A stretch of DNA of 7,842 nucleotides from a virus (taxonomy: Duplodnaviria > Heunggongvirae > Uroviricota > Caudoviricetes). The notes beneath the pieces are model-generated. The model was not told the origin of the DNA. It saw nothing but the letters and a program-made list of their open reading frames with translations, and ran no database searches. The position numbers were made by a program, and so were the translations under genes. The stretch's first letter is position 1. Each line of letters starts with the position of its first letter. Shown here piece after piece: positions 1 to 7,500 of the stretch. The stretch is from IMG/VR virus record IMGVR_UViG_2675903654_000004; one strand, given 5' to 3'.

Positions 1-2139
1 GGGGATTCCACGCTTTCAGCGTTTAATAAAACCCTGGTTCTTTCCGGTAATCAGTCCGGACTGACTGCCGATCGCATGTTGACGCTCTCCAGAGCCGGAC
101 AGGCCGCAGGGCTGACGTTTAACCAGGCGAGTGAGTCACTGGCAGCCCTGGTGAATGCCGGTGTGCGTGGTGGTGAACAGTTTGATGCCATCAACCAGAG
201 TGTCGCGCGTTTTGCTTCTGCATCCGGTGTGGAGGTGGACAAGGTTGCAGAGGCTTTCGGAAAGCTGACCACCGACCCTACGTCGGGGCTGATTGCGATG
301 GCGCGCCAGTTCCGTAACGTGACGGCAGAGCAGATTGCGTATGTTGCGCAGCTGCAGCGTTCCGGTGATGAGGCCGGGGCCTTACAGGCGGCGAACGATA
401 TCGCCACGAAAGGCTTTGATGAGCAGACCCGCCGCCTGAAAGAGAACATGGGCACGCTGGAGACCTGGGCAGACAGGACTGCACGGGCATTCAAATCCAT
501 GTGGGATGCGGTGCTGGATATTGGTCGTCCTGATACCGCGCAGGAGATGCTGATTAAGGCAGAGGCTGCGTTTAAGAAAGCAGACGACATCTGGAATCTG
601 CGCAAGGATGATTATTTTGTTAACGATGAAGCGCGGGCGCGTTACTGGGATGATCGTGAAAAGGCCCGTCTTGCGCTTGAAGCCGCCCGAAAGAAGGCTG
701 AGCAGCAGACTCAACAGGACAAAAATGCGCAGCAGCAGAGCGATACCGAAGCGTCACGGCTGAAATATACCGAAGAGGCGCAGAAGGCTTACGAACGGCT
801 GCAGACGCCGCTGGAGAAATATACCGCCCGTCAGGAAGAACTGAACAAGGCACTGAAAGACGGGAAAATCCTGCAGGCGGATTACAACACGCTGATGGCG
901 GCGGCGAAAAAGGATTATGAAGCGACGCTGAAAAAGCCGAAACAGTCCAGCGTGAAGGTGTCTGCGGGCGATCGTCAGGAAGACAGTGCTCATGCTGCCC
1001 TGCTGACGCTTCAGGCAGAACTCCGGACGCTGGAGAAGCATGCCGGAGCAAATGAGAAAATCAGCCAGCAGCGCCGGGATTTGTGGAAGGCGGAGAGTCA
1101 GTTCGCGGTACTGGAGGAGGCGGCGCAACGTCGCCAGCTGTCTGCACAGGAGAAATCCCTGCTGGCGCATAAAGATGAGACGCTGGAGTACAAACGCCAG
1201 CTGGCTGCACTTGGCGACAAGGTTACGTATCAGGAGCGCCTGAACGCGCTGGCGCAGCAGGCGGATAAATTCGCACAGCAGCAACGGGCAAAACGGGCCG
1301 CCATTGATGCGAAAAGCCGGGGGCTGACTGACCGGCAGGCAGAACGGGAAGCCACGGAACAGCGCCTGAAGGAACAGTATGGCGATAATCCGCTGGCGCT
1401 GAATAACGTCATGTCAGAGCAGAAAAAGACCTGGGCGGCTGAAGACCAGCTTCGCGGGAACTGGATGGCAGGCCTGAAGTCCGGCTGGAGTGAGTGGGAA
1501 GAGAGCGCCACGGACAGTATGTCGCAGGTAAAAAGTGCAGCCACGCAGACCTTTGATGGTATTGCACAGAATATGGTGGCGATGCTGACCGGCAGTGAGC
1601 AGAACTGGCGCAGCTTCACCCGTTCCGTGCTGTCCATGATGACAGAAATTCTGCTTAAGCAGGCAATGGTGGGGATTGTCGGGAGTATCGGCAGCGCCAT
1701 TGGCGGGGCTGTTGGTGGCGGCGCATCCGCGTCAGGCGGTACAGCCATTCAGGCCGCTGCGGCGAAATTCCATTTTGCAACCGGAGGATTTACGGGAACC
1801 GGCGGCAAATATGAGCCAGCGGGGATTGTTCACCGTGGTGAGTTTGTCTTCACGAAGGAGGCAACCAGCCGGATTGGCGTGGGGAATCTTTACCGGCTGA
1901 TGCGCGGCTATGCCACCGGCGGTTATGTCGGTACACCGGGCAGCATGGCAGACAGCCGGTCGCAGGCGTCCGGGACGTTTGAGCAGAATAACCATGTGGT
2001 GATTAACAACGACGGCACGAACGGGCAGATAGGTCCGGCTGCTCTGAAGGCGGTGTATGACATGGCCCGCAAGGGTGCCCGTGATGAAATTCAGACACAG
2101 ATGCGTGATGGTGGCCTGTTCTCCGGAGGTGGACGATGA
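1..2139 (+). CDS. H: Tail tape measure protein (lambda gpH-like), 5'-truncated by window edge; 712 codons present
   Basis: Frame 1 is open from base 1 (no stop before the first Met at 76 reported by the ORF track) to TGA at 2137-2139. Long Ala/Glu/Lys/Gln/Arg-rich predicted coiled-coil middle, Gly-rich hydrophobic C-terminal segment (MVGIVGSIGSAIGGAVGGGASASGG) and ...RDGGLFSGGGR terminus that I recognise as lambda gpH. Sits immediately upstream of M-L-K-I-J. Confidence 0.95.
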   Translation, partial: GDSTLSAFNKTLVLSGNQSGLTADRMLTLSRAGQAAGLTFNQASESLAALVNAGVRGGEQFDAINQSVARFASASGVEVDKVAEAFGKLTTDPTSGLIAMARQFRNVTAEQIAYVAQLQRSGDEAGALQAANDIATKGFDEQTRRLKENMGTLETWADRTARAFKSMWDAVLDIGRPDTAQEMLIKAEAAFKKADDIWNLRKDDYFVNDEARARYWDDREKARLALEAARKKAEQQTQQDKNAQQQSDTEASRLKYTEEAQKAYERLQTPLEKYTARQEELNKALKDGKILQADYNTLMAAAKKDYEATLKKPKQSSVKVSAGDRQEDSAHAALLTLQAELRTLEKHAGANEKISQQRRDLWKAESQFAVLEEAAQRRQLSAQEKSLLAHKDETLEYKRQLAALGDKVTYQERLNALAQQADKFAQQQRAKRAAIDAKSRGLTDRQAEREATEQRLKEQYGDNPLALNNVMSEQKKTWAAEDQLRGNWMAGLKSGWSEWEESATDSMSQVKSAATQTFDGIAQNMVAMLTGSEQNWRSFTRSVLSMMTEILLKQAMVGIVGSIGSAIGGAVGGGASASGGTAIQAAAAKFHFATGGFTGTGGKYEPAGIVHRGEFVFTKEATSRIGVGNLYRLMRGYATGGYVGTPGSMADSRSQASGTFEQNNHVVINNDGTNGQIGPAALKAVYDMARKGARDEIQTQMRDGGLFSGGGR
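2125..2129 (+). promoter_or_regulatory. Shine-Dalgarno (GGAGG) for M, 6-nt spacer to ATG 2136
   Basis: GGAGG read directly at 2125-2129 inside the 3' end of H. Confidence 0.6.
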
Positions 2140-2465
2140 AGACCTTCCGCTGGAAAGTGAAACCCGGTATGGATGTGGCTTCGGTCCCTTCTGTAAGAAA
2201 GGTGCGCTTTGGTGATGGCTATTCTCAGCGAGCGCCTGCCGGGCTGAATGCCAACCTGAAAACGTACAGCGTGACGCTTTCTGTCCCCCGTGAGGAGGCC
2301 ACGGTACTGGAGTCGTTTCTGGAAGAGCACGGGGGCTGGAAATCCTTTCTGTGGACGCCGCCTTATGAGTGGCGGCAGATAAAGGTGACCTGCGCAAAAT
2401 GGTCGTCGCGGGTCAGTATGCTGCGTGTTGAGTTCAGCGCAGAGTTTGAACAGGTGGTGAACTGA
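2136..2465 (+). CDS. M: Tail tip assembly / minor tail protein M (lambda gpM-like), 109 aa
   Basis: ATG at 2136 overlaps the H stop (ATGA); ORF ends TGA 2463-2465. Protein MKTFRWKVKPGMDVASVPSVRKVRFGDGYSQRAPAGL... matches lambda gpM as I recall it; correct size and position. Confidence 0.95.
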   Translation: MKTFRWKVKPGMDVASVPSVRKVRFGDGYSQRAPAGLNANLKTYSVTLSVPREEATVLESFLEEHGGWKSFLWTPPYEWRQIKVTCAKWSSRVSMLRVEFSAEFEQVVN

Positions 2466-3163
2466 TGCAGGATATCCGGCAGGAAACACTGAATGAATGC
2501 ACCCGTGCGGAGCAGTCGGCCAGCGTGGTGCTCTGGGAAATCGACCTGACAGAGGTCGGTGGAGAACGTTATTTTTTCTGTAATGAGCAGAACGAAAAAG
2601 GTGAGCCGGTCACCTGGCAGGGGCGACAGTATCAGCCGTATCCCATTCAGGGGAGCGGTTTTGAACTGAATGGCAAAGGCACCAGTACGCGCCCCACGCT
2701 GACGGTTTCTAACCTGTACGGTATGGTCACCGGGATGGCGGAAGATATGCAGAGTCTGGTCGGCGGAACGGTGGTCCGGCGTAAGGTTTACGCCCGTTTT
2801 CTGGATGCGGTGAACTTCGTCAACGGAAACAGTTACGCCGATCCGGAGCAGGAGGTGATCAGCCGCTGGCGCATTGAGCAGTGCAGCGAACTGAGCGCGG
2901 TGAGTGCCTCCTTTGTACTGTCCACGCCGACGGAAACGGATGGCGCTGTTTTTCCGGGACGTATCATGCTGGCCAACACCTGCACCTGGACCTATCGCGG
3001 TGACGAGTGCGGTTATAGCGGTCCGGCTGTCGCGGATGAATATGACCAGCCAACGTCCGATATCACGAAGGATAAATGCAGCAAATGCCTGAGCGGTTGT
3101 AAGTTCCGCAATAACGTCGGCAACTTTGGCGGCTTCCTTTCCATTAACAAACTTTCGCAGTAA
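2465..3163 (+). CDS. L: Tail tip protein L (lambda gpL-like), 232 aa, with C-terminal cysteine cluster
   Basis: ATG at 2465 overlaps the M stop (TGATG); possible SD AGGTGG at 2452-2457; ends TAA 3161-3163. Protein MQDIRQETLNECTRAEQSASVVLWEIDL... with C-terminal cysteines C173, C182, C205, C208, C212, characteristic of gpL-family proteins. Confidence 0.95.
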   Translation: MQDIRQETLNECTRAEQSASVVLWEIDLTEVGGERYFFCNEQNEKGEPVTWQGRQYQPYPIQGSGFELNGKGTSTRPTLTVSNLYGMVTGMAEDMQSLVGGTVVRRKVYARFLDAVNFVNGNSYADPEQEVISRWRIEQCSELSAVSASFVLSTPTETDGAVFPGRIMLANTCTWTYRGDECGYSGPAVADEYDQPTSDITKDKCSKCLSGCKFRNNVGNFGGFLSINKLSQ

Positions 3164-3168
3164 ATCCC

Positions 3169-3912
3169 ATGACACAGACAGAATCAGCGATTCTGGCGCA
3201 CGCCCGGCGATGTGCGCCAGCGGAGTCGTGCGGCTTCGTGGTAAGCACGCCGGAGGGGGAAAGATATTTCCCCTGCGTGAATATCTCCGGTGAGCCGGAG
3301 GCGTATTTCCGTATGTCGCCGGAAGACTGGCTGCAGGCAGAAATGCAGGGGGAGATTGTGGCGCTGGTCCACAGCCACCCCGGTGGTCTGCCCTGGCTGA
3401 GTGAGGCCGACCGGCGGCTGCAGGTGCAGAGTGATTTGCCGTGGTGGCTGGTCTGCCGGGGTGAGATTCATAAGTTCCGCTGTGTGCCGCATCTCACCGG
3501 GCGGCGCTTTGAGCACGGTGTGACGGACTGTTACACACTGTTCCGGGATGCTTATCATCTGGCGGAGATTGAGATGCCGGATTTTGTGCGTGAGGATGAC
3601 TGGTGGCGTAACGGTCAGAATCTCTATCTGGATAATCTGGAGGCCACAGGGCTGTATCAGGTGCCGTTGTCAGCGGCGCAGCCGGGCGATGTGCTGCTGT
3701 GCTGTTTTGGTTCATCGGTGCCGAATCACGCCGCTATTTACTGTGGTGACGGCGAGCTGCTGCACCATATTCCTGAACAACTGAGTAAACGGGAGAGGTA
3801 TACCGACAAATGGCAGCGACGCACACACTCCCTCTGGCGTCACCGGGAATGGCACGCATCTGCCTTTACGGGGATTTGCAACGATTTGGCCGCCGCATCG
3901 ACCTTCGTGTGA
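3169..3912 (+). CDS. K: Tail tip assembly protein K (lambda gpK-like): N-terminal JAB/MPN (JAMM) metalloprotease domain plus C-terminal NlpC/P60-like cysteine peptidase domain. Maximal ORF 247 aa; the classical lambda K start corresponds to the internal Met49 at 3313 (199 aa)
   Basis: ORF from ATG 3169 (5 nt after the L stop) to TGA 3910-3912. JAMM motif H68-S-H70-x7-S78-x2-D81 (HSHPGGLPWLSEAD) with upstream E19-S-C-G-F-V-V (E-x-x-G-hydrophobic). NlpC/P60-like Cys in TDCYT (C121) and His in NHAAIY (H187) and LLHH (H199/H200). The start is uncertain: no SD precedes 3169, whereas GGAGG at 3297-3301 precedes ATG 3313. Confidence 0.85.
   Translation: MTQTESAILAHARRCAPAESCGFVVSTPEGERYFPCVNISGEPEAYFRMSPEDWLQAEMQGEIVALVHSHPGGLPWLSEADRRLQVQSDLPWWLVCRGEIHKFRCVPHLTGRRFEHGVTDCYTLFRDAYHLAEIEMPDFVREDDWWRNGQNLYLDNLEATGLYQVPLSAAQPGDVLLCCFGSSVPNHAAIYCGDGELLHHIPEQLSKRERYTDKWQRRTHSLWRHREWHASAFTGICNDLAAASTFV
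3791..3798 (+). promoter_or_regulatory. Shine-Dalgarno (GGGAGAGG) for I, 11-nt spacer to ATG 3810
   Basis: Purine-rich GGGAGAGG read directly at 3791-3798, inside the K coding sequence. Confidence 0.55.
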
Positions 3913-4481
3913 AAACGGGGGCTGAAGCCATCCGCGCACTGGCCACACAGCTCCCGGCGTTTCGTCAGAAACTGAGCGACGGCTGGTATCAGGTACGGAT
4001 TGCCGGGCGGGACGTCAGCGCGTCCGGGTTAACGGCGCAGTTACATGAGACTCTGCCTGATGGCGCTGTGATTCATATTGTTCCCAGAGTCGCCGGGGCC
4101 AAGTCAGGTGGCGTATTCCAGATTGTCCTGGGGGCTGCCGCCATTGCCGGATCATTCTTTACCGCCGGAGCCACCCTTGCAGCATGGGGGGCAGCCATTG
4201 GGGCCGGTGGTATGACCGGCATCCTGTTTTCTCTCGGTGCCAGTATGGTGCTCGGTGGTGTGGCGCAGATGCTGGCACCGAAAGCCAGAACTCCCCGTAC
4301 ACAGACAACGGATAACGGTAAGCAGAACACCTATTTCTCCTCACTGGATAACATGGTTGCCCAGGGCAATGTTCTGCCTGTTCTGTACGGGGAAATGCGC
4401 GTGGGGTCTCGCGTGGTTTCTCAGGAGATCAGCACGGCAGACGAAGGGGACGGTGGTCAGGTTGTGGTGATTGGTCGCTGA
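3810..4481 (+). CDS. I: Tail tip assembly protein I (lambda gpI-like), 223 aa: N-terminal ubiquitin-like (beta-grasp) domain ending in Gly-Gly, then a Gly/Ala-rich hydrophobic segment
   Basis: ATG 3810 to TGA 4479-4481. Overlaps the K 3' end by 103 nt in a different frame. Protein MAATHTLPLASPGMARICLYGDLQRFGRRIDLRVKTG... matches lambda gpI as I recall it. ...VPRVAGAKSGG (G100-G101) is followed by VFQIVLGAAAIAGSFFTAGATLAAWGAAIGAGGMTGILFSLGASMVLGG. Confidence 0.92.
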   Translation: MAATHTLPLASPGMARICLYGDLQRFGRRIDLRVKTGAEAIRALATQLPAFRQKLSDGWYQVRIAGRDVSASGLTAQLHETLPDGAVIHIVPRVAGAKSGGVFQIVLGAAAIAGSFFTAGATLAAWGAAIGAGGMTGILFSLGASMVLGGVAQMLAPKARTPRTQTTDNGKQNTYFSSLDNMVAQGNVLPVLYGEMRVGSRVVSQEISTADEGDGGQVVVIGR

Positions 4482-4499
4482 TGCAAAATGTTTTATGTG

Positions 4500-4530
4500 A
4501 AACCGCCTGCGGGCGGTTTTGTCGTTTATG
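4500..4530 (+). terminator. Hairpin with U-rich tail in the I-J intergenic gap; possible weak intrinsic terminator, attenuator or RNA-stabilising structure
   Basis: Perfect inverted repeat AAACCGCC (4500-4507) / GGCGGTTT (4512-4519) around a TGCG loop, followed by TGTCGTTT. Read directly from the sequence; function not demonstrated. Confidence 0.35.
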
Positions 4531-4541: not shown

Positions 4542-7500
4542 ATGGGTAAAGGCAGCAGTAAGGGGCATACCCCGCGCGAAGCGAAGGACAACCTGAAGTC
4601 CACGCAGCTGCTGAGTGTGATCGATGCCATCAGTGAAGGGCCGGTTGAAGGTCCGGTGGATGGATTAAAAAGCGTGCTGCTGAACAGTACGCCGGTGCTG
4701 GACAGTGAGGGGAATACCAACATCTCCGGCGTCACGGTGGTGTTCCGGGCAGGTGAGCAGGAGCAGACACCGCCGGAAGGTTTTGAATCCTCCGGCTCCG
4801 AGACGGTGCTGGGTACGGAAGTGAAATATGACACGCCGATCACCCGCACCATCACGTCGGCAAACATCGACCGTCTGCGCTTTACCTTCGGTGTGCAGGC
4901 ACTGGTGGAAACCACCTCAAAGGGGGACCGGAATCCGTCGGAAGTCCGCCTGCTGGTTCAGATACAGCGTAACGGTGGCTGGGTGACGGAAAAAGACATC
5001 ACCATTAAGGGCAAAACCACCTCGCAGTATCTGGCCTCGGTGGTGGATAACCTGCCGCCGCGCCCGTTTAATATCCGGATGCGCAGGATGACGCCGGACA
5101 GCACCACAGACCAGCTGCAGAACAAAACGCTCTGGTCGTCATACACCGAAATCATCGATGTGAAACAGTGCTACCCGAACACGGCACTGGTCGGCGTACA
5201 GGTGGACTCGGAGCAGTTCGGCAGCCAGCAGGTGAGTCGTAATTATCATCTTCGCGGGCGCATTCTGCAGGTGCCGTCGAACTATAACCCGCAGACGCGA
5301 CAATACAGCGGTATCTGGGACGGAACGTTAAAACCGGCATACAGCAACAACATGGCCTGGTGTCTGTGGGATATGCTGACCCACCCGCGCTACGGCATGG
5401 GGAAACGTCTTGGTGCGGCGGATGTGGACAAATGGGCGCTGTATGTCATCGGCCAGTACTGCGACCAGTCAGTGCCGGACGGCTCTGGCGGCACGGAGCC
5501 GCGCATCACCTGTAATGCGTACCTGACCACACAGCGCAAGGCGTGGGATGTGCTCAGTGATTTCTGCTCGGCGATGCGCTGTATGCCGGTATGGAACGGG
5601 CAGACGCTGACGTTCGTGCAGGACCGACCGTCGGATAAGGTGTGGACCTATAACCGCAGTAATGTGGTGATGCCGGATGATGGCGCGCCGTTCCGCTACA
5701 GCTTCAGCGCCCTGAAGGACCGCCATAATGCCGTTGAGGTGAACTGGATTGACCCGAACAACGGCTGGGAGACGGCGACAGAGCTTGTGGAGGATACGCA
5801 GGCCATTGCCCGTTACGGTCGTAACGTCACGAAGATGGATGCTTTTGGCTGTACCAGCCGGGGGCAGGCACACCGCGCCGGGCTGTGGCTGATTAAAACA
5901 GAACTGCTGGAAACGCAGACCGTGGACTTCAGCGTGGGCGCAGAAGGGCTTCGCCATGTGCCGGGCGATGTCATTGAAATCTGTGATGATGACTATGCCG
6001 GTATCAGCATCGGCGGGCGCGTGCTGGCGGTAAACAGCCAGACCCGGACGCTGACGCTCGACCGTGAAATCACGCTGCCATCCTCCGGTACCACGCTGAT
6101 AAGCCTGGTTGACGGGCAGGGTAATCCGGTGAGCGTGGAGGTCCAGTCCGTCACCGACGGCGTGAAGGTTAAAGTGAGCCGTGTTCCTGACGGCGTTGCC
6201 GGATACAGCGTGTGGGGGCTGAAGCTGCCGACGCTGCGCCAGCGCCTGTTCCGCTGCGTGAGTATCCGTGAGAACGATGACGGCACGTATGCCATCACCG
6301 CCGTGCAGCATGTACCGGAAAAAGAGGCCATCGTGGATAACGGGGCGCACTTTGACGGCGACCAGAGCGGCACGGTGAATGGTGTCACGCCGCCAGCGGT
6401 GCAGCACCTGACTGCCGAAGTCACCGCAGACAGCGGGGAATATCAGGTACTGGCGCGATGGGACACGCCGAAGGTGGTGAAGGGTGTGAGCTTCCTGCTT
6501 CGCCTGATCGTGGCAGCGGATGACGGCAGTGAGCGGCTGGTCAGCACAGCCCAGACGACGGAAACCACATACCGCTTCAGGCAGCTGGCGCTGGGGAACT
6601 ACAGGCTGACGGTCCGGGCGATAAATGCCCGGGGGCAGCAGGGCGAGCCGGCGTCGGTATCGTTCCGGATTGCCGCACCGGTAGCACCGTCGCGGATTGA
6701 GCTGACACCGGGCTATTTTCAGATAACAGCGGTCCCGCGTCTTGCGGTGTATGACCCGACGGTACAGTTTGAGTTCTGGTTTTCGGAGACAAAAATCGCA
6801 GACATATCTCAGGTGGAAACCTCTGCCCGTTATCTGGGGACCGGCAGTCAGTGGAGTGTATCCGGCCCGCACATTAAGCCCGGGAAGGATTTCTGGTTTT
6901 ACGTGCGCAGCGTCAACCTGGTGGGGAAATCTGCGTTTGTGGAAATCAGCGGGCAGCCCAGCAATGATGGTGAAGGGTATCTGGAATTTTTCCGGGAAAA
7001 AATAGGAAAACTGCATCTGGCTCAGGGGCTGTGGGAGCTGATAGACAACAGCCAGCTTGCGGATGAGATGGCGGAGATGAAGACCACCATCACCGAAACC
7101 CGCAATGAAATCACACAGACGGTCAGTAAAACGCTGGAGGACCAGAGCGCCACCATACAGCAGATACAGCGCGTGCAGAAGGACACAAATGATGACCTTG
7201 CTGCACTTTACATGCTGAAGGTACAGAAAACAAAAAATGGCATACCCTATGTTGCCGGTATTGGAGCGGGGATTGAGGATACTGATGGCCAGCCCCTGAG
7301 CAACATACTGCTGCTGGCTGACCGTATTGCGATGATTAACCCGGAGGACGGCAACACCACGCCGTTATTTGTGGCGCAGGGGAATCAGTTGTTCATGAAC
7401 GATGTGTTCCTGAAGCGGCTGTTTGCGGTGAGTATCACCTCGTCCGGCAATCCCCCGACGTTTTCCCTGACGCCGGAGGGCAGGCTGACCGCAAGAAATG

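What the first reader, a model, noticed from the sequence alone, without database searches (positions are those of the whole stretch)
3169..4481. K (JAB + NlpC/P60 peptidase) and I (ubiquitin-like domain ending in Gly-Gly) form a phage-encoded ubiquitin-like processing pair
K combines a JAMM metallo-isopeptidase motif with an NlpC/P60-like Cys/His peptidase signature (C121 in TDCYT, H187 in NHAAIY, H199/H200). The adjacent, overlapping gene I encodes a small N-terminal domain that ends in ...IHIVPRVAGAKSGG (G100-G101, nt 4107-4112), reminiscent of the C-terminal diglycine of ubiquitin/ThiS/MoaD-like beta-grasp proteins, followed directly by a long Gly/Ala-rich hydrophobic segment with repeated small-xxx-small (glycine-zipper-like) spacing. 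This architecture has been noted in comparative-genomics literature for lambda K/I as a prokaryotic relative of ubiquitin signalling, with the prediction that the K JAB domain cleaves I after the Gly-Gly. It is not novel, but the biochemistry is poorly characterised and this window has the complete pair.
Basis: partly seen in the sequence, partly recalled or inferred. Interest (0 to 1): 0.45.

Follow-up and report, generated by a model that had tools for sequence, protein, structure and literature searches.

The report
Lambda tail genes K and I
These are the phage lambda tail-tip assembly genes K (a deubiquitinase-like plus cell-wall-peptidase-like enzyme) and I (a ubiquitin-like domain fused to the plug of the tail tip); the pairing is real, but it was predicted in 2006 and has reportedly now been confirmed by experiment, so it is not new.

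Summary
The window is a lambda-type tail-tip module, about 98% identical to phage lambda: H (C-terminal part), M, L, K, I and the start of J. K (3169-3912, 247 aa) has a complete JAMM motif (E19, H68-x-H70-x7-S78-x2-D81) and an NlpC/P60 domain (C121, H187, H199). I (3810-4481) has an N-terminal beta-grasp domain, two hydrophobic Gly/Ala-rich helices and a C-terminal plug domain.

K matches JAMM deubiquitinase-type enzymes and NlpC/P60 endopeptidases. I 13-93 matches SAMP1, MoaD, Urm1 and ubiquitin.

Iyer et al. predicted it in 2006. Cryo-EM shows only the C-terminal part of gpI in the virion and no gpK. [quoted passage not shown] An F-pyocin preprint shows the same N-domain removal.

Two corrections. 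The conserved glycine is G96 (P92-x3-G96), which aligns with the MoaD/SAMP1/ubiquitin terminal Gly-Gly. G100-G101 lies in a variable linker, and residue 101 is reportedly resolved in mature tails, so cleavage "after G101" is unlikely.

The parts
3169..3912 (+). Gene K, tail tip assembly protein K, 247 aa long form (JAB/JAMM domain plus NlpC/P60 domain)
   Evidence: ORF. Pfam Prok-JAB 3-105 and NLPC_P60 111-224. AF2 model pLDDT 90.1, pTM 0.84. Foldseek matches to JAMM1, Rpn11, CSN5 and to MepS, LytE and Acd autolysins. Most database homologues are annotated as 247 aa.
3169..3492 (+). K JAB/MPN+ domain (aa 1-108) with JAMM motif: E19 (nt 3223-3225), H68 (3370), H70 (3376), S78 (3400), D81 (3409)
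   Evidence: Motif positions. E19 is invariant and H68, H70, S78 and D81 are at least 90% conserved in 39 homologues. E-x-C-G and H-x-H...S/T-x-x-D are present in 13/13 two-domain K proteins scanned from diverse phages. Residues 1-48 are confidently folded as part of the domain.
3313..3315 (+). M49, the classical annotated start of lambda K (199-aa form); very probably not the functional start
   Evidence: Lambda imm21 annotates K from this codon. That form lacks E19, helix 3-15 and strands 21-27 and 30-36 of the MPN fold. Position 49 is not conserved in homologues. A GGAGG lies 11 nt upstream, which explains the historical call.
3493..3909 (+). K NlpC/P60 (C40, papain-like) domain with C121 (nt 3529), H187 (3727), H199 (3763), followed by a C-terminal helix 230-244
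   Evidence: Pfam. C121, H187 and H199 are invariant in 39 homologues. Foldseek matches to NlpC/P60 endopeptidases.
3810..4481 (+). Gene I, tail tip assembly protein I (223 aa from ATG 3810; alternative start M14 at 3849 gives 210 aa)
   Evidence: ORF. 99% identical to PDB lambda gpI (2 substitutions). Distant homologues begin at query residues 14-17. Residues 1-12 are low-confidence coil. Databases hold both the 223-aa and 210-aa forms.
3846..4088 (+). I ubiquitin-like beta-grasp domain (aa 13-93)
   Evidence: AF2 pLDDT above 92 across 13-93, with strands 13-19, 29-34, 59-64 and 87-93. Foldseek best hits are SAMP1, Urm1, MoaD, CysO, ThiS, ubiquitin and SUMO, with TM up to 0.76.
4083..4100 (+). 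Conserved Ubl tail P92-R-V-A-G96-A97; the most likely region of the scissile bond
   Evidence: P92 63/63, G96 61/63, position 97 is A, S or G in 61/63. Other clades show R or N at 97. hhalign places MoaD PPVTGG, SAMP1 PPVSGG and ubiquitin LRLRGG on PRVAGA.
4101..4112 (+).
   Evidence: Variable length; G100 31/50 and G101 48/56. gpI is reported as resolved from residue 101 in closed-state tails (PMC11101478).
4113..4280 (+). Hydrophobic Gly/Ala-rich segment (aa 102-157), equal to helices H1 and H2, predicted transmembrane
   Evidence: Sequence and hydropathy. G108 is invariant. Described as H1/H2 with predicted transmembrane capability in PMC11101478.
4209..4478 (+). I C-terminal structural domain (aa about 134-223): the trimeric plug in the tail tip lumen that holds the C-terminus of the tape measure protein
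   Evidence: Modelled in lambda cryo-EM as residues 135-223 (PMC10721106) and 134-222 (PMC12617516). PDB 9e7m chains cover query residues 133-222.

Best explanation
K and I are the lambda-type tail tip assembly pair. I is made as a precursor with four parts: a ubiquitin-like beta-grasp domain (aa about 13-93), a short tail and linker, two hydrophobic Gly/Ala-rich helices, and a C-terminal plug domain.

The C-terminal part is built into the tail tip with J and L. There it forms a trimeric plug that holds the tape measure protein's C-terminus. The ubiquitin-like domain is a removable pro-domain. It probably keeps the hydrophobic precursor soluble and blocks the next assembly step until the tip is correctly formed.

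K is a non-structural assembly enzyme. Its JAMM/MPN+ zinc-peptidase domain binds the extended Ubl tail, as a deubiquitinase or desampylase binds its substrate, and cuts the polypeptide at the end of the Ubl. The cut is most likely at or next to the invariant G96 (G96/A97), not after G101. This releases the Ubl and leaves mature gpI in the tail, while K and the Ubl are left out of the virion.

What rests on what:
- Shown here: the domain identities, the folds, motif conservation and obligate gene linkage.
- Taken from the literature: the absence of K and of the gpI N-domain from particles, and cleavage by gpK.
- Inferred: the exact scissile bond, the chaperone/checkpoint role of the Ubl, and the role of the NlpC/P60 domain.
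For: - Identity: 98% nucleotide identity to lambda L-K-I-J; gpI is 99% identical to the PDB lambda gpI.
- Domains: Pfam Prok-JAB, NLPC_P60 and Lambda_tail_I.
- Catalytic motifs are complete and conserved.
- K model (pLDDT 90) matches P. furiosus JAMM1, including its complex with the Ubl SAMP2, plus Rpn11 and CSN5, and also MepS and LytE.
- The nearest curated NCBIfam model to the JAB is desampylase, although sub-threshold.
- The I N-domain model (pLDDT 88.6) matches SAMP1, Urm1, MoaD, CysO, ThiS and ubiquitin.
- The Ubl tail P-x3-G is conserved and aligns to the terminal GG of MoaD, SAMP1 and ubiquitin.
- Linkage: in 16 phage genomes and about 60 viral contigs, every complete locus encodes a JAB upstream of a Ubl-bearing I. 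This holds even where JAB is a separate gene (Seuss) or where unrelated genes are inserted between K and I (Cla, Medea1).
- Literature: the prediction (PMC1779556). gpI 135-223 or 134-222 or from 101 onward in tails, and gpK absent. The single gpI peptide in virion mass spectrometry (9.87% coverage) can only be aa 202-223. A conference report that gpK cleaves the Ubl only after gpI engages the tip complex. The F-pyocin homologue PA0640 loses its N-domain during maturation, and the gpK homologue PA0639 is required for tip assembly.
Against: - The direct experimental evidence for lambda is available to me only as a one-paragraph conference summary, with no data, no cleavage site and no statement of which K domain is responsible.
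- The F-pyocin preprint found that PA0640 expressed alone in E. coli loses its N-region to unknown host proteases, so a dedicated protease is not strictly needed for removal in vitro.
- Cryo-EM absence of the N-domain could also reflect disorder.
- The lambda virion mass spectrometry rests on a single peptide.
Confidence: 0.77

Rival explanations
1. The NlpC/P60 (papain-like) domain of K, not the JAB domain, is the peptidase that removes the Ubl, or it makes a second cut near G101. On this reading JAB serves mainly as the Ubl-binding module.
For: The NlpC/P60 triad C121/H187/H199 is invariant, so the domain is probably catalytically active. No peptidoglycan-degrading role fits, because K is absent from virions. 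Most eukaryotic DUBs are papain-like, and Iyer et al. raised this possibility. There are two semi-conserved glycines (G96 and G101) and two peptidase domains.
Against: The JAMM catalytic residues are equally conserved. JAB tracks the Ubl even when it is split from NlpC/P60, as in Seuss. The conference summary attributes the activity to gpK's 'deubiquitinating domain'. The JAB's closest relatives are enzymes that cut after Ubl tails.
Confidence: 0.12
2. The Ubl domain is not specifically cleaved by K. It is either retained but disordered in the virion or trimmed non-specifically by host proteases, and K acts only as a chaperone or scaffold.
For: Cryo-EM authors describe the N-domain as 'unresolved' or 'unseen' rather than absent. 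PA0640 expressed alone in E. coli is trimmed by unknown host proteases.
Against: The N-domain of PA0640 is detectable in assembly-stalled mutants but not in mature F-pyocin. The only lambda virion peptide is C-terminal, although the N-domain has several good tryptic peptides. The conference report describes cleavage by gpK. Strict conservation of both catalytic centres would be unexplained.
Confidence: 0.07
3. K is a virion-delivered cell-wall hydrolase: its NlpC/P60 domain cuts peptidoglycan during DNA injection. The JAB-Ubl resemblance would be incidental.
For: NlpC/P60 enzymes are typically peptidoglycan endopeptidases (Foldseek hits to MepS, LytE and autolysins). NCBIfam TIGR02219 'putative phage cell wall peptidase' matches weakly and sub-threshold.
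Against: gpK was not detected in lambda virions by mass spectrometry or cryo-EM. Lambda virions are reported to contain no peptidoglycan hydrolase (PMC12617516). This reading does not explain the JAB domain or its linkage to the Ubl.
Confidence: 0.04

Closest known systems
Phage lambda gpK / gpI (TAPK / TAPI of Iyer, Burroughs and Aravind 2006; PDB 8IYK, 8IYL, 8K35, 8XCG, 9E7M for gpI)
   Same: Same genes. About 98% nucleotide identity, same order and same 103-nt overlap. I differs from lambda gpI at 2 residues (T71A, I164T) and K at 7 residues, none of them catalytic.
   Different: Only allelic differences. The window comes from a lambdoid phage or prophage slightly closer to phiSTEC1575-Stx2k and PhiR30_1 than to lambda itself (98.2% against 97.9%).
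Archaeal SAMP / desampylase pair (HvJAMM1, P. furiosus JAMM1 with SAMP1 or SAMP2)
   Same: The best structural matches for both partners: K's JAB to PfJAMM1, including its complex with SAMP2, and I's N-domain to SAMP1. Complete JAMM motif. Ubl tail of the form P-x-x-x-G aligned to PPVSGG.
   Different: There is no E1-like activating enzyme and no conjugation. The Ubl is an N-terminal pro-domain fused in cis to its 'target', and it is cut at a peptide bond once. The tail is G-A rather than G-G. The desampylase NCBIfam score is far below its cut-off (29.9 against 130), so K is a relative, not a member.
F-type pyocin PA0639 / PA0640 (Pseudomonas aeruginosa tailocin)
   Same: Homologous gene pair in the same order. 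Only the C-terminal part of the plug protein is seen in particles. The N-domain is shown by mass spectrometry to be removed before the tip joins the tube. The K homologue is required and is absent from particles.
   Different: It is a tailocin, not a phage. The protease responsible was left unassigned by those authors.
Ubiquitin-fusion precursors processed by deubiquitinases (polyubiquitin, Ub-ribosomal protein fusions)
   Same: An N-terminal Ubl is fused to a structural protein and removed by a dedicated Ubl-specific peptidase. The Ubl acts as a transient solubility or assembly aid.
   Different: The eukaryotic precursors are cut mostly by papain-like DUBs. Here the candidate enzyme is a JAMM metallopeptidase encoded next to its substrate.
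Phage T5 pb3 plug domain
   Same: A trimeric plug closing the tail tip lumen at the same position as the gpI C-domain (PMC10721106).
   Different: In T5 the plug is an insertion within the baseplate hub protein. That paper describes no separate Ubl-bearing precursor or K-like protein for T5.

Membership tests
JAMM/MPN+ metallopeptidases (Pfam Prok-JAB PF14464) | MPN fold | tested here: met
   AF2 model pLDDT 90.1. Foldseek hits to PfJAMM1, Rpn11, CSN5 and AMSH at probability 1.00. Pfam 52.6 bits against a cut-off of 25.
JAMM/MPN+ metallopeptidases (Pfam Prok-JAB PF14464) | JAMM motif E ... H-x-H-x7-S-x2-D (zinc ligands and catalytic Glu) | tested here: met
   E19 and H68-S-H70-PGGLPWL-S78-EA-D81. 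Conserved in homologues. Met only with the 247-aa ORF; the 199-aa annotation lacks E19.
JAMM/MPN+ metallopeptidases (Pfam Prok-JAB PF14464) | Zinc-dependent cleavage after the C-terminal glycine of a Ubl | not testable with these tools
   Only a conference summary reports gpK cleaving the gpI Ubl (PMC12908700).
NlpC/P60 (C40) papain-like peptidases (PF00877) | Papain-like fold with a Cys-His-His(/Asp/Glu) triad | tested here: met
   Pfam 46.7 bits against a cut-off of 23. C121, H187 and H199 are invariant. Foldseek hits to MepS, LytE and Acd autolysins.
NlpC/P60 (C40) papain-like peptidases (PF00877) | Peptidoglycan (gamma-D-Glu-mDAP) endopeptidase activity | not testable with these tools
   No activity data. 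K is absent from virions, and lambda virions reportedly lack a peptidoglycan hydrolase.
Ubiquitin-like beta-grasp proteins of the ThiS/MoaD/SAMP/Urm1 class | Beta-grasp fold | tested here: met
   AF2 pLDDT above 92 for residues 13-93. Best PDB matches are SAMP1, Urm1, MoaD, CysO, ThiS, then ubiquitin and SUMO.
Ubiquitin-like beta-grasp proteins of the ThiS/MoaD/SAMP/Urm1 class | Flexible C-terminal tail ending in a conserved Gly (Gly-Gly) | tested here: inconclusive
   The conserved tail is P92-x3-G96-[A/S/G, also R/N]. G96 is near-invariant and aligns with the terminal GG. It is G-A rather than G-G, and it is internal rather than C-terminal until cleaved. The literal G100-G101 is not conserved.
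Ubiquitin-like beta-grasp proteins of the ThiS/MoaD/SAMP/Urm1 class | Activation by an E1-like adenylating enzyme, leading to conjugation or thiocarboxylation | tested here: not met
   No E1-like or E2-like gene is present in the window, where H, M, L, K, I and J fill the + strand, or in the sampled phage loci. It therefore works like a Ubl precursor cut by a DUB, not like a conjugation or sulphur-carrier system.
Lambda tail assembly protein I family (PF06805 plus TAPI-C) | N-terminal Lambda_tail_I domain, Gly-rich hydrophobic linker and C-terminal plug domain, encoded between K and J | tested here: met
   Pfam 98.5 bits against a cut-off of 23.8. 99% identity to PDB gpI. Gene order confirmed.

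The most novel reading that the evidence does not exclude
K has more than one substrate. [quoted passage not shown] The protease and site for that event are stated to be unknown (PMC12617516). In this window, cutting gpH after any of the Gly-Gly pairs at H710, H714 or H721 would release a 13.8-14.6 kDa C-terminal fragment, matching the reported fragment of about 14 kDa. That fragment is the piece held by the mature gpI plug. A second non-excluded reading, already voiced by Hor et al., is that K's JAB also strips host Bil-type Ubl conjugates from the central tail fibre J.
Probability: 0.1. Interest if true: 0.65.

Novelty: already known. Interest (0 to 1): 0.22.

Why it matters
The K/I pair is the clearest bacterial-virus example of a ubiquitin-like domain working with a JAMM deubiquitinase-type enzyme without any conjugation machinery. 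It is of interest for the origin of ubiquitin signalling and as a proteolytic checkpoint in siphophage and F-pyocin tail assembly.

This window adds nothing new to that story, because it is essentially lambda itself. Three practical points come out of the check:
- The conserved Ubl terminus is G96(-A97), not the eye-catching G100-G101. This should guide mutagenesis and mass-spectrometry searches.
- The widely propagated 199-aa gpK annotation removes the catalytic Glu and a third of the JAB domain. It has misled at least one published domain analysis (PMC7291167).
- The substrate of the conserved NlpC/P60 centre is still unassigned.

Tried and rejected
I replaced it with tblastn against phage genomes and with single-protein scans.
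- Phage Seuss first appeared to have a K without JAB, which would have allowed a test of which glycine tracks JAB. Broadened HMMs and Pfam showed a separate, under-annotated JAB ORF with a perfect HxHx7SxxD motif. No true JAB-less, Ubl-positive locus was found, so that test could not be done.
- L024 (an I C-domain without a Ubl) is a chimeric ORF with an unrelated N-terminus and no tail genes upstream. I discarded it as uninformative.
- The Gly-zipper (small-xxx-small) enrichment is not significant against shuffles.
- There is no canonical slippery heptamer in the K/I overlap. The rare K-I fusion proteins in databases are more likely frameshift errors or pseudogenes than programmed frameshift products.
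- The paper describing PDB 8IYK (Structure 2024, doi 10.1016/j.str.2023.10.006) is not held. The 'resolved from residue 101' statement is therefore second-hand, from the same group's later paper.
- No full paper or preprint of the Davidson-lab K/I work was found.
Full report
**What the window is.** The 7842-nt window is a lambda-type tail-tip module. On the + strand it carries the C-terminal 712 codons of the tape measure gene H (to 2139), M (2136-2465), L (2465-3163), K (3169-3912), I (3810-4481) and the start of J (from 4543). The K-I region is 97.9-98.2% identical at the nucleotide level to phage lambda and close lambdoid phages. Pfam assigns Phage_min_tail to M, Phage_tail_L to L, Prok-JAB plus NLPC_P60 to K, and Lambda_tail_I to I, all far above gathering thresholds. 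The I protein differs from PDB lambda gpI at two residues (T71A, I164T). K differs from lambda K at seven non-catalytic residues.

**Checking the observation.**
- K has the complete JAMM signature.
- K also has the NlpC/P60 triad candidates C121, H187 and H199.
- In 39 homologues E19, C121, H187 and H199 are invariant, and H68, H70, S78 and D81 are at least 90% conserved.
- The same motifs recur in 13 of 13 two-domain K proteins scanned from phages of Yersinia, Ralstonia, Citrobacter, Burkholderia, Synechococcus, Moraxella, Pseudomonas, Acinetobacter, Shigella, Klebsiella and E. coli.
- I has the sequence ...IHIVPRVAGAKSGG, followed by a 56-residue hydrophobic segment in which 25 residues are Gly or Ala.
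- The claimed small-xxx-small periodicity is not significant once composition is controlled: 16 observed against 12.8 +/- 1.95 in shuffles.

- *K.* An AlphaFold2 model built on 39 sequences has pLDDT 90.1 and pTM 0.84. Foldseek against the PDB returns two classes of hit at probability 1.00. One class is JAMM/MPN+ enzymes: P. furiosus JAMM1 alone and bound to the Ubl SAMP2, Rpn11, CSN5 and AMSH. The other is NlpC/P60 endopeptidases: MepS/Spr, LytE and C. difficile autolysins. The nearest curated NCBIfam model to the first domain is the haloarchaeal desampylase. The score is sub-threshold, so K is a relative and not a member.
- *I.* A model of residues 1-101 built on 62 diverse sequences has pLDDT 88.6. 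Residues 13-93 score above 92 and have a beta-beta-alpha-beta...beta layout. Residues 1-12 and 94-101 are low-confidence coil. Its best PDB matches are SAMP1, Urm1, MoaD, CysO and ThiS, followed by ubiquitin and SUMO, with TM up to 0.76.

**Where the ubiquitin-like domain really ends.** I aligned 62 diverse full-length homologues, 29-60% identical to the query, taken from a search of 1.8 billion cluster representatives.
- P92 is invariant.
- G96 is present in 61 of 63 rows.
- Position 97 is Ala, Ser or Gly in 61 of 63. Other clades show Arg or Asn there.
- G108 is invariant.
- G100 is Gly in only 31 of 50 non-gap rows and G101 in 48 of 56. They sit in a basic/Gly linker that varies in length.

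hhalign of the family profile against MoaD, SAMP1 and ubiquitin places PPVTGG, PPVSGG and LRLRGG on gpI P92-RVA-G96-A97. In the model the last strand ends at R93, so G96/A97 lies three to four residues beyond it, as ubiquitin's G75-G76 lies beyond its last strand. G101 would be eight residues out.

[quoted passage not shown] therefore most plausibly corresponds to G96. In addition, Ge and Wang state that gpI is resolved 'from position 101 onward' in the closed lambda tail (PMC11101478). If so, G101 is retained in the mature protein and cleavage 'after G101' cannot be right. I put the scissile bond at G96/A97 with about 60% confidence, at G100/G101 with about 30%, and elsewhere with about 10%.

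**Gene linkage.** I sampled 16 annotated phage genomes spread down a tblastn ranking of 1733 phage records. I added about 60 viral metagenome contigs and scored ORFs with HMMs for the four domains.
- Every locus with enough upstream sequence has a JAB domain encoded upstream of a Ubl-bearing I.
- The three apparent exceptions dissolve on inspection. Vibrio phage Cla and Pseudomonas phage Medea1 have antirepressor or regulator genes inserted between a normal JAB+NlpC/P60 K and I.
- Caulobacter phage Seuss has NlpC/P60 and JAB as two separate genes in swapped order. The JAB ORF is under-called in the annotation but carries HTHPGATANLSVGD.
- No Ubl-positive, JAB-negative phage was found.

**What the literature already establishes.**
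- Iyer, Burroughs and Aravind (2006) identified the Ubl in tail assembly protein I and the JAB+NlpC/P60 architecture of K. They proposed that K's JAB releases the Ubl by cutting at its C-terminal glycine (PMC1779556).
- Three lambda cryo-EM studies find a trimer of the gpI C-terminal part (135-223, 134-222, or from 101) plugging the tail tip lumen and holding the C-terminal helix of gpH. None of them detects gpK (PMC10721106, PMC12617516, PMC11101478).
- In the virion mass spectrometry of PMC10721106, gpI is represented by one peptide with 9.87% coverage. Among lambda gpI tryptic peptides this can only be residues 202-223 (22 of 223). Several well-behaved N-domain peptides were not seen.
[quoted passage not shown] The cleavage happens only after gpI has engaged other tip proteins, which enforces stepwise assembly (PMC12908700).
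- A 2026 preprint on F-type pyocin shows by mass spectrometry that the N-domain of the gpI homologue PA0640 is present in assembly-stalled tips and absent from mature particles, a 'proteolytic checkpoint'. The gpK homologue PA0639 is required for tip formation and absent from particles. The protease was left unassigned.
- I found no full paper on the lambda experiments.

**Mechanism.** The best-supported reading is as follows. I is a precursor whose N-terminal Ubl is a removable pro-domain. The hydrophobic helices and the plug domain are inserted into the J/L tip complex. K, a non-structural enzyme, binds the Ubl and its extended tail through the JAMM domain and cuts once, at or next to G96. 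The Ubl and K then leave, and the tip can accept the tape measure protein and the distal tail protein M.
- Shown here: the folds, motifs, conservation and linkage.
- Taken from the literature: the absence of K and of the N-domain from particles, and cleavage by gpK.
- Inferred: the exact bond, the chaperone/steric-shield role of the Ubl, and any role for NlpC/P60.

Rival readings are listed with their refutation tests. They are that NlpC/P60 is the processing enzyme, that trimming is non-specific with K acting as a chaperone, and that K is an injected muralytic enzyme. Together they carry about a quarter of the probability.

**Annotation issues.** The classical lambda annotation, still used in recent records, starts K at M49 to give 199 aa. 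That form lacks E19 and the first helix and two strands of the MPN fold, all confidently modelled. Position 49 is not conserved. Most database homologues are 247 aa, while the 199-aa clusters carry only the NlpC/P60 Pfam hit. A 2020 review working from the 199-aa sequence saw only 'a peptidase domain' in gpK (PMC7291167).

For I, the start is uncertain. The ATG at 3810 has the better Shine-Dalgarno sequence (GGGAGAGG, 12 nt upstream). However, distant homologues begin at the equivalent of M14 (3849), residues 1-12 are predicted to be disordered, and databases hold both the 223-aa and 210-aa forms.

**Novelty and score.** This is lambda's own K/I pair. The hypothesis is 20 years old, and the key experiment has reportedly been done. 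Novelty: already known. Interest: 0.22. What remains is the site correction, the annotation point and the unassigned NlpC/P60 substrate.

The most novel reading not excluded is that K also processes gpH. The protease and site for gpH to gpH* are stated to be unknown. Cutting after the Gly-Gly pairs at H710, H714 or H721 in this window would give a 13.8-14.6 kDa fragment, matching the reported fragment of about 14 kDa. Against this, the cleavage is reported to occur only after tail assembly, and K is not found in finished particles. I give it about 10%.

Noticed in passing
window 3169-3315 (K codons 1-49): The classical lambda annotation of K (199 aa, starting at M49, nt 3313) is still propagated in recent GenBank records. 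It truncates the JAB domain and removes the catalytic Glu E19. The 247-aa ORF is the conserved, foldable unit. A strong GGAGG lies 11 nt before M49, while no Shine-Dalgarno sequence precedes the ATG at 3169, which sits 5 nt after the L stop codon and suggests translational coupling to L.
   Followed up: yes
window 3810-3851 (I codons 1-14): The start of I is ambiguous. Databases hold the 223-aa (ATG 3810) and 210-aa (ATG 3849) forms, a published review quotes 190 aa, and some representative proteins begin at query residue 34. Distant homologues start at the equivalent of M14, and residues 1-12 are predicted to be disordered. A 190-aa form would cut into the beta-grasp domain.
   Followed up: partly
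window 4497-4525 (between the I stop codon and the J start): A strong GC-rich hairpin (GAAACCGCC-UGCG-GGCGGUUUU) followed by a U-rich stretch; the 61-nt intergenic region folds at -21 kcal/mol, z = -2.9. Phage N15 has an annotated 'putative rho-independent terminator' stem-loop at the same position between its I and J homologues. It may set the I:J expression ratio or stabilise the mRNA.
   Followed up: partly
window 76-2139 (gpH C-terminal part; H residues about 688-745, nt about 1639-1810): gpH carries a hydrophobic Gly/Ala-rich segment (MTEILLKQAMVGIVGSIGSAIGGAVGGGASASGG...) similar in composition to the gpI H1/H2 segment. Cleavage after the Gly-Gly pairs at H710, H714 or H721 would release a 13.8-14.6 kDa fragment, matching the reported gpH C-terminal fragment of about 14 kDa. 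The protease and site for that cleavage are reported as unknown.
   Followed up: partly
L012:1619-1999 (Caulobacter phage Seuss, NC_047757.1): Seuss splits K into two genes in swapped order: NlpC/P60 first, then a separate 126-aa JAB ORF with a perfect HTHx7SxxD motif. The record annotates only the last 61 codons of the JAB ORF, as a hypothetical protein. The Seuss I junction is also atypical (LPALTFGKDGG).
   Followed up: partly
L076:2078-3671 (Vibrio phage Cla) and L077:733-4051 (Pseudomonas phage Medea1): In two unrelated phages the otherwise tight K-I junction is a site where unrelated genes have been inserted: antirepressor/KilA-N and Rha/Arc/HTH regulators, plus small ORFs including a zinc-ribbon protein.
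   Followed up: no
database proteins P0133, P0153, P0198, P0237, P0238: Rare single-member proteins fuse K (JAB+NlpC/P60) to I in one polypeptide, and others fuse L to K. The K frame to I frame shift is -1, but no canonical slippery heptamer lies in the 103-nt overlap. They are probably frameshift errors or pseudogenes rather than programmed fusions.
   Followed up: partly
window 5469-7016, minus strand: A 515-codon ORF runs antisense within gene J. I treated it as a probable chance antisense ORF and did not examine it.
   Followed up: no
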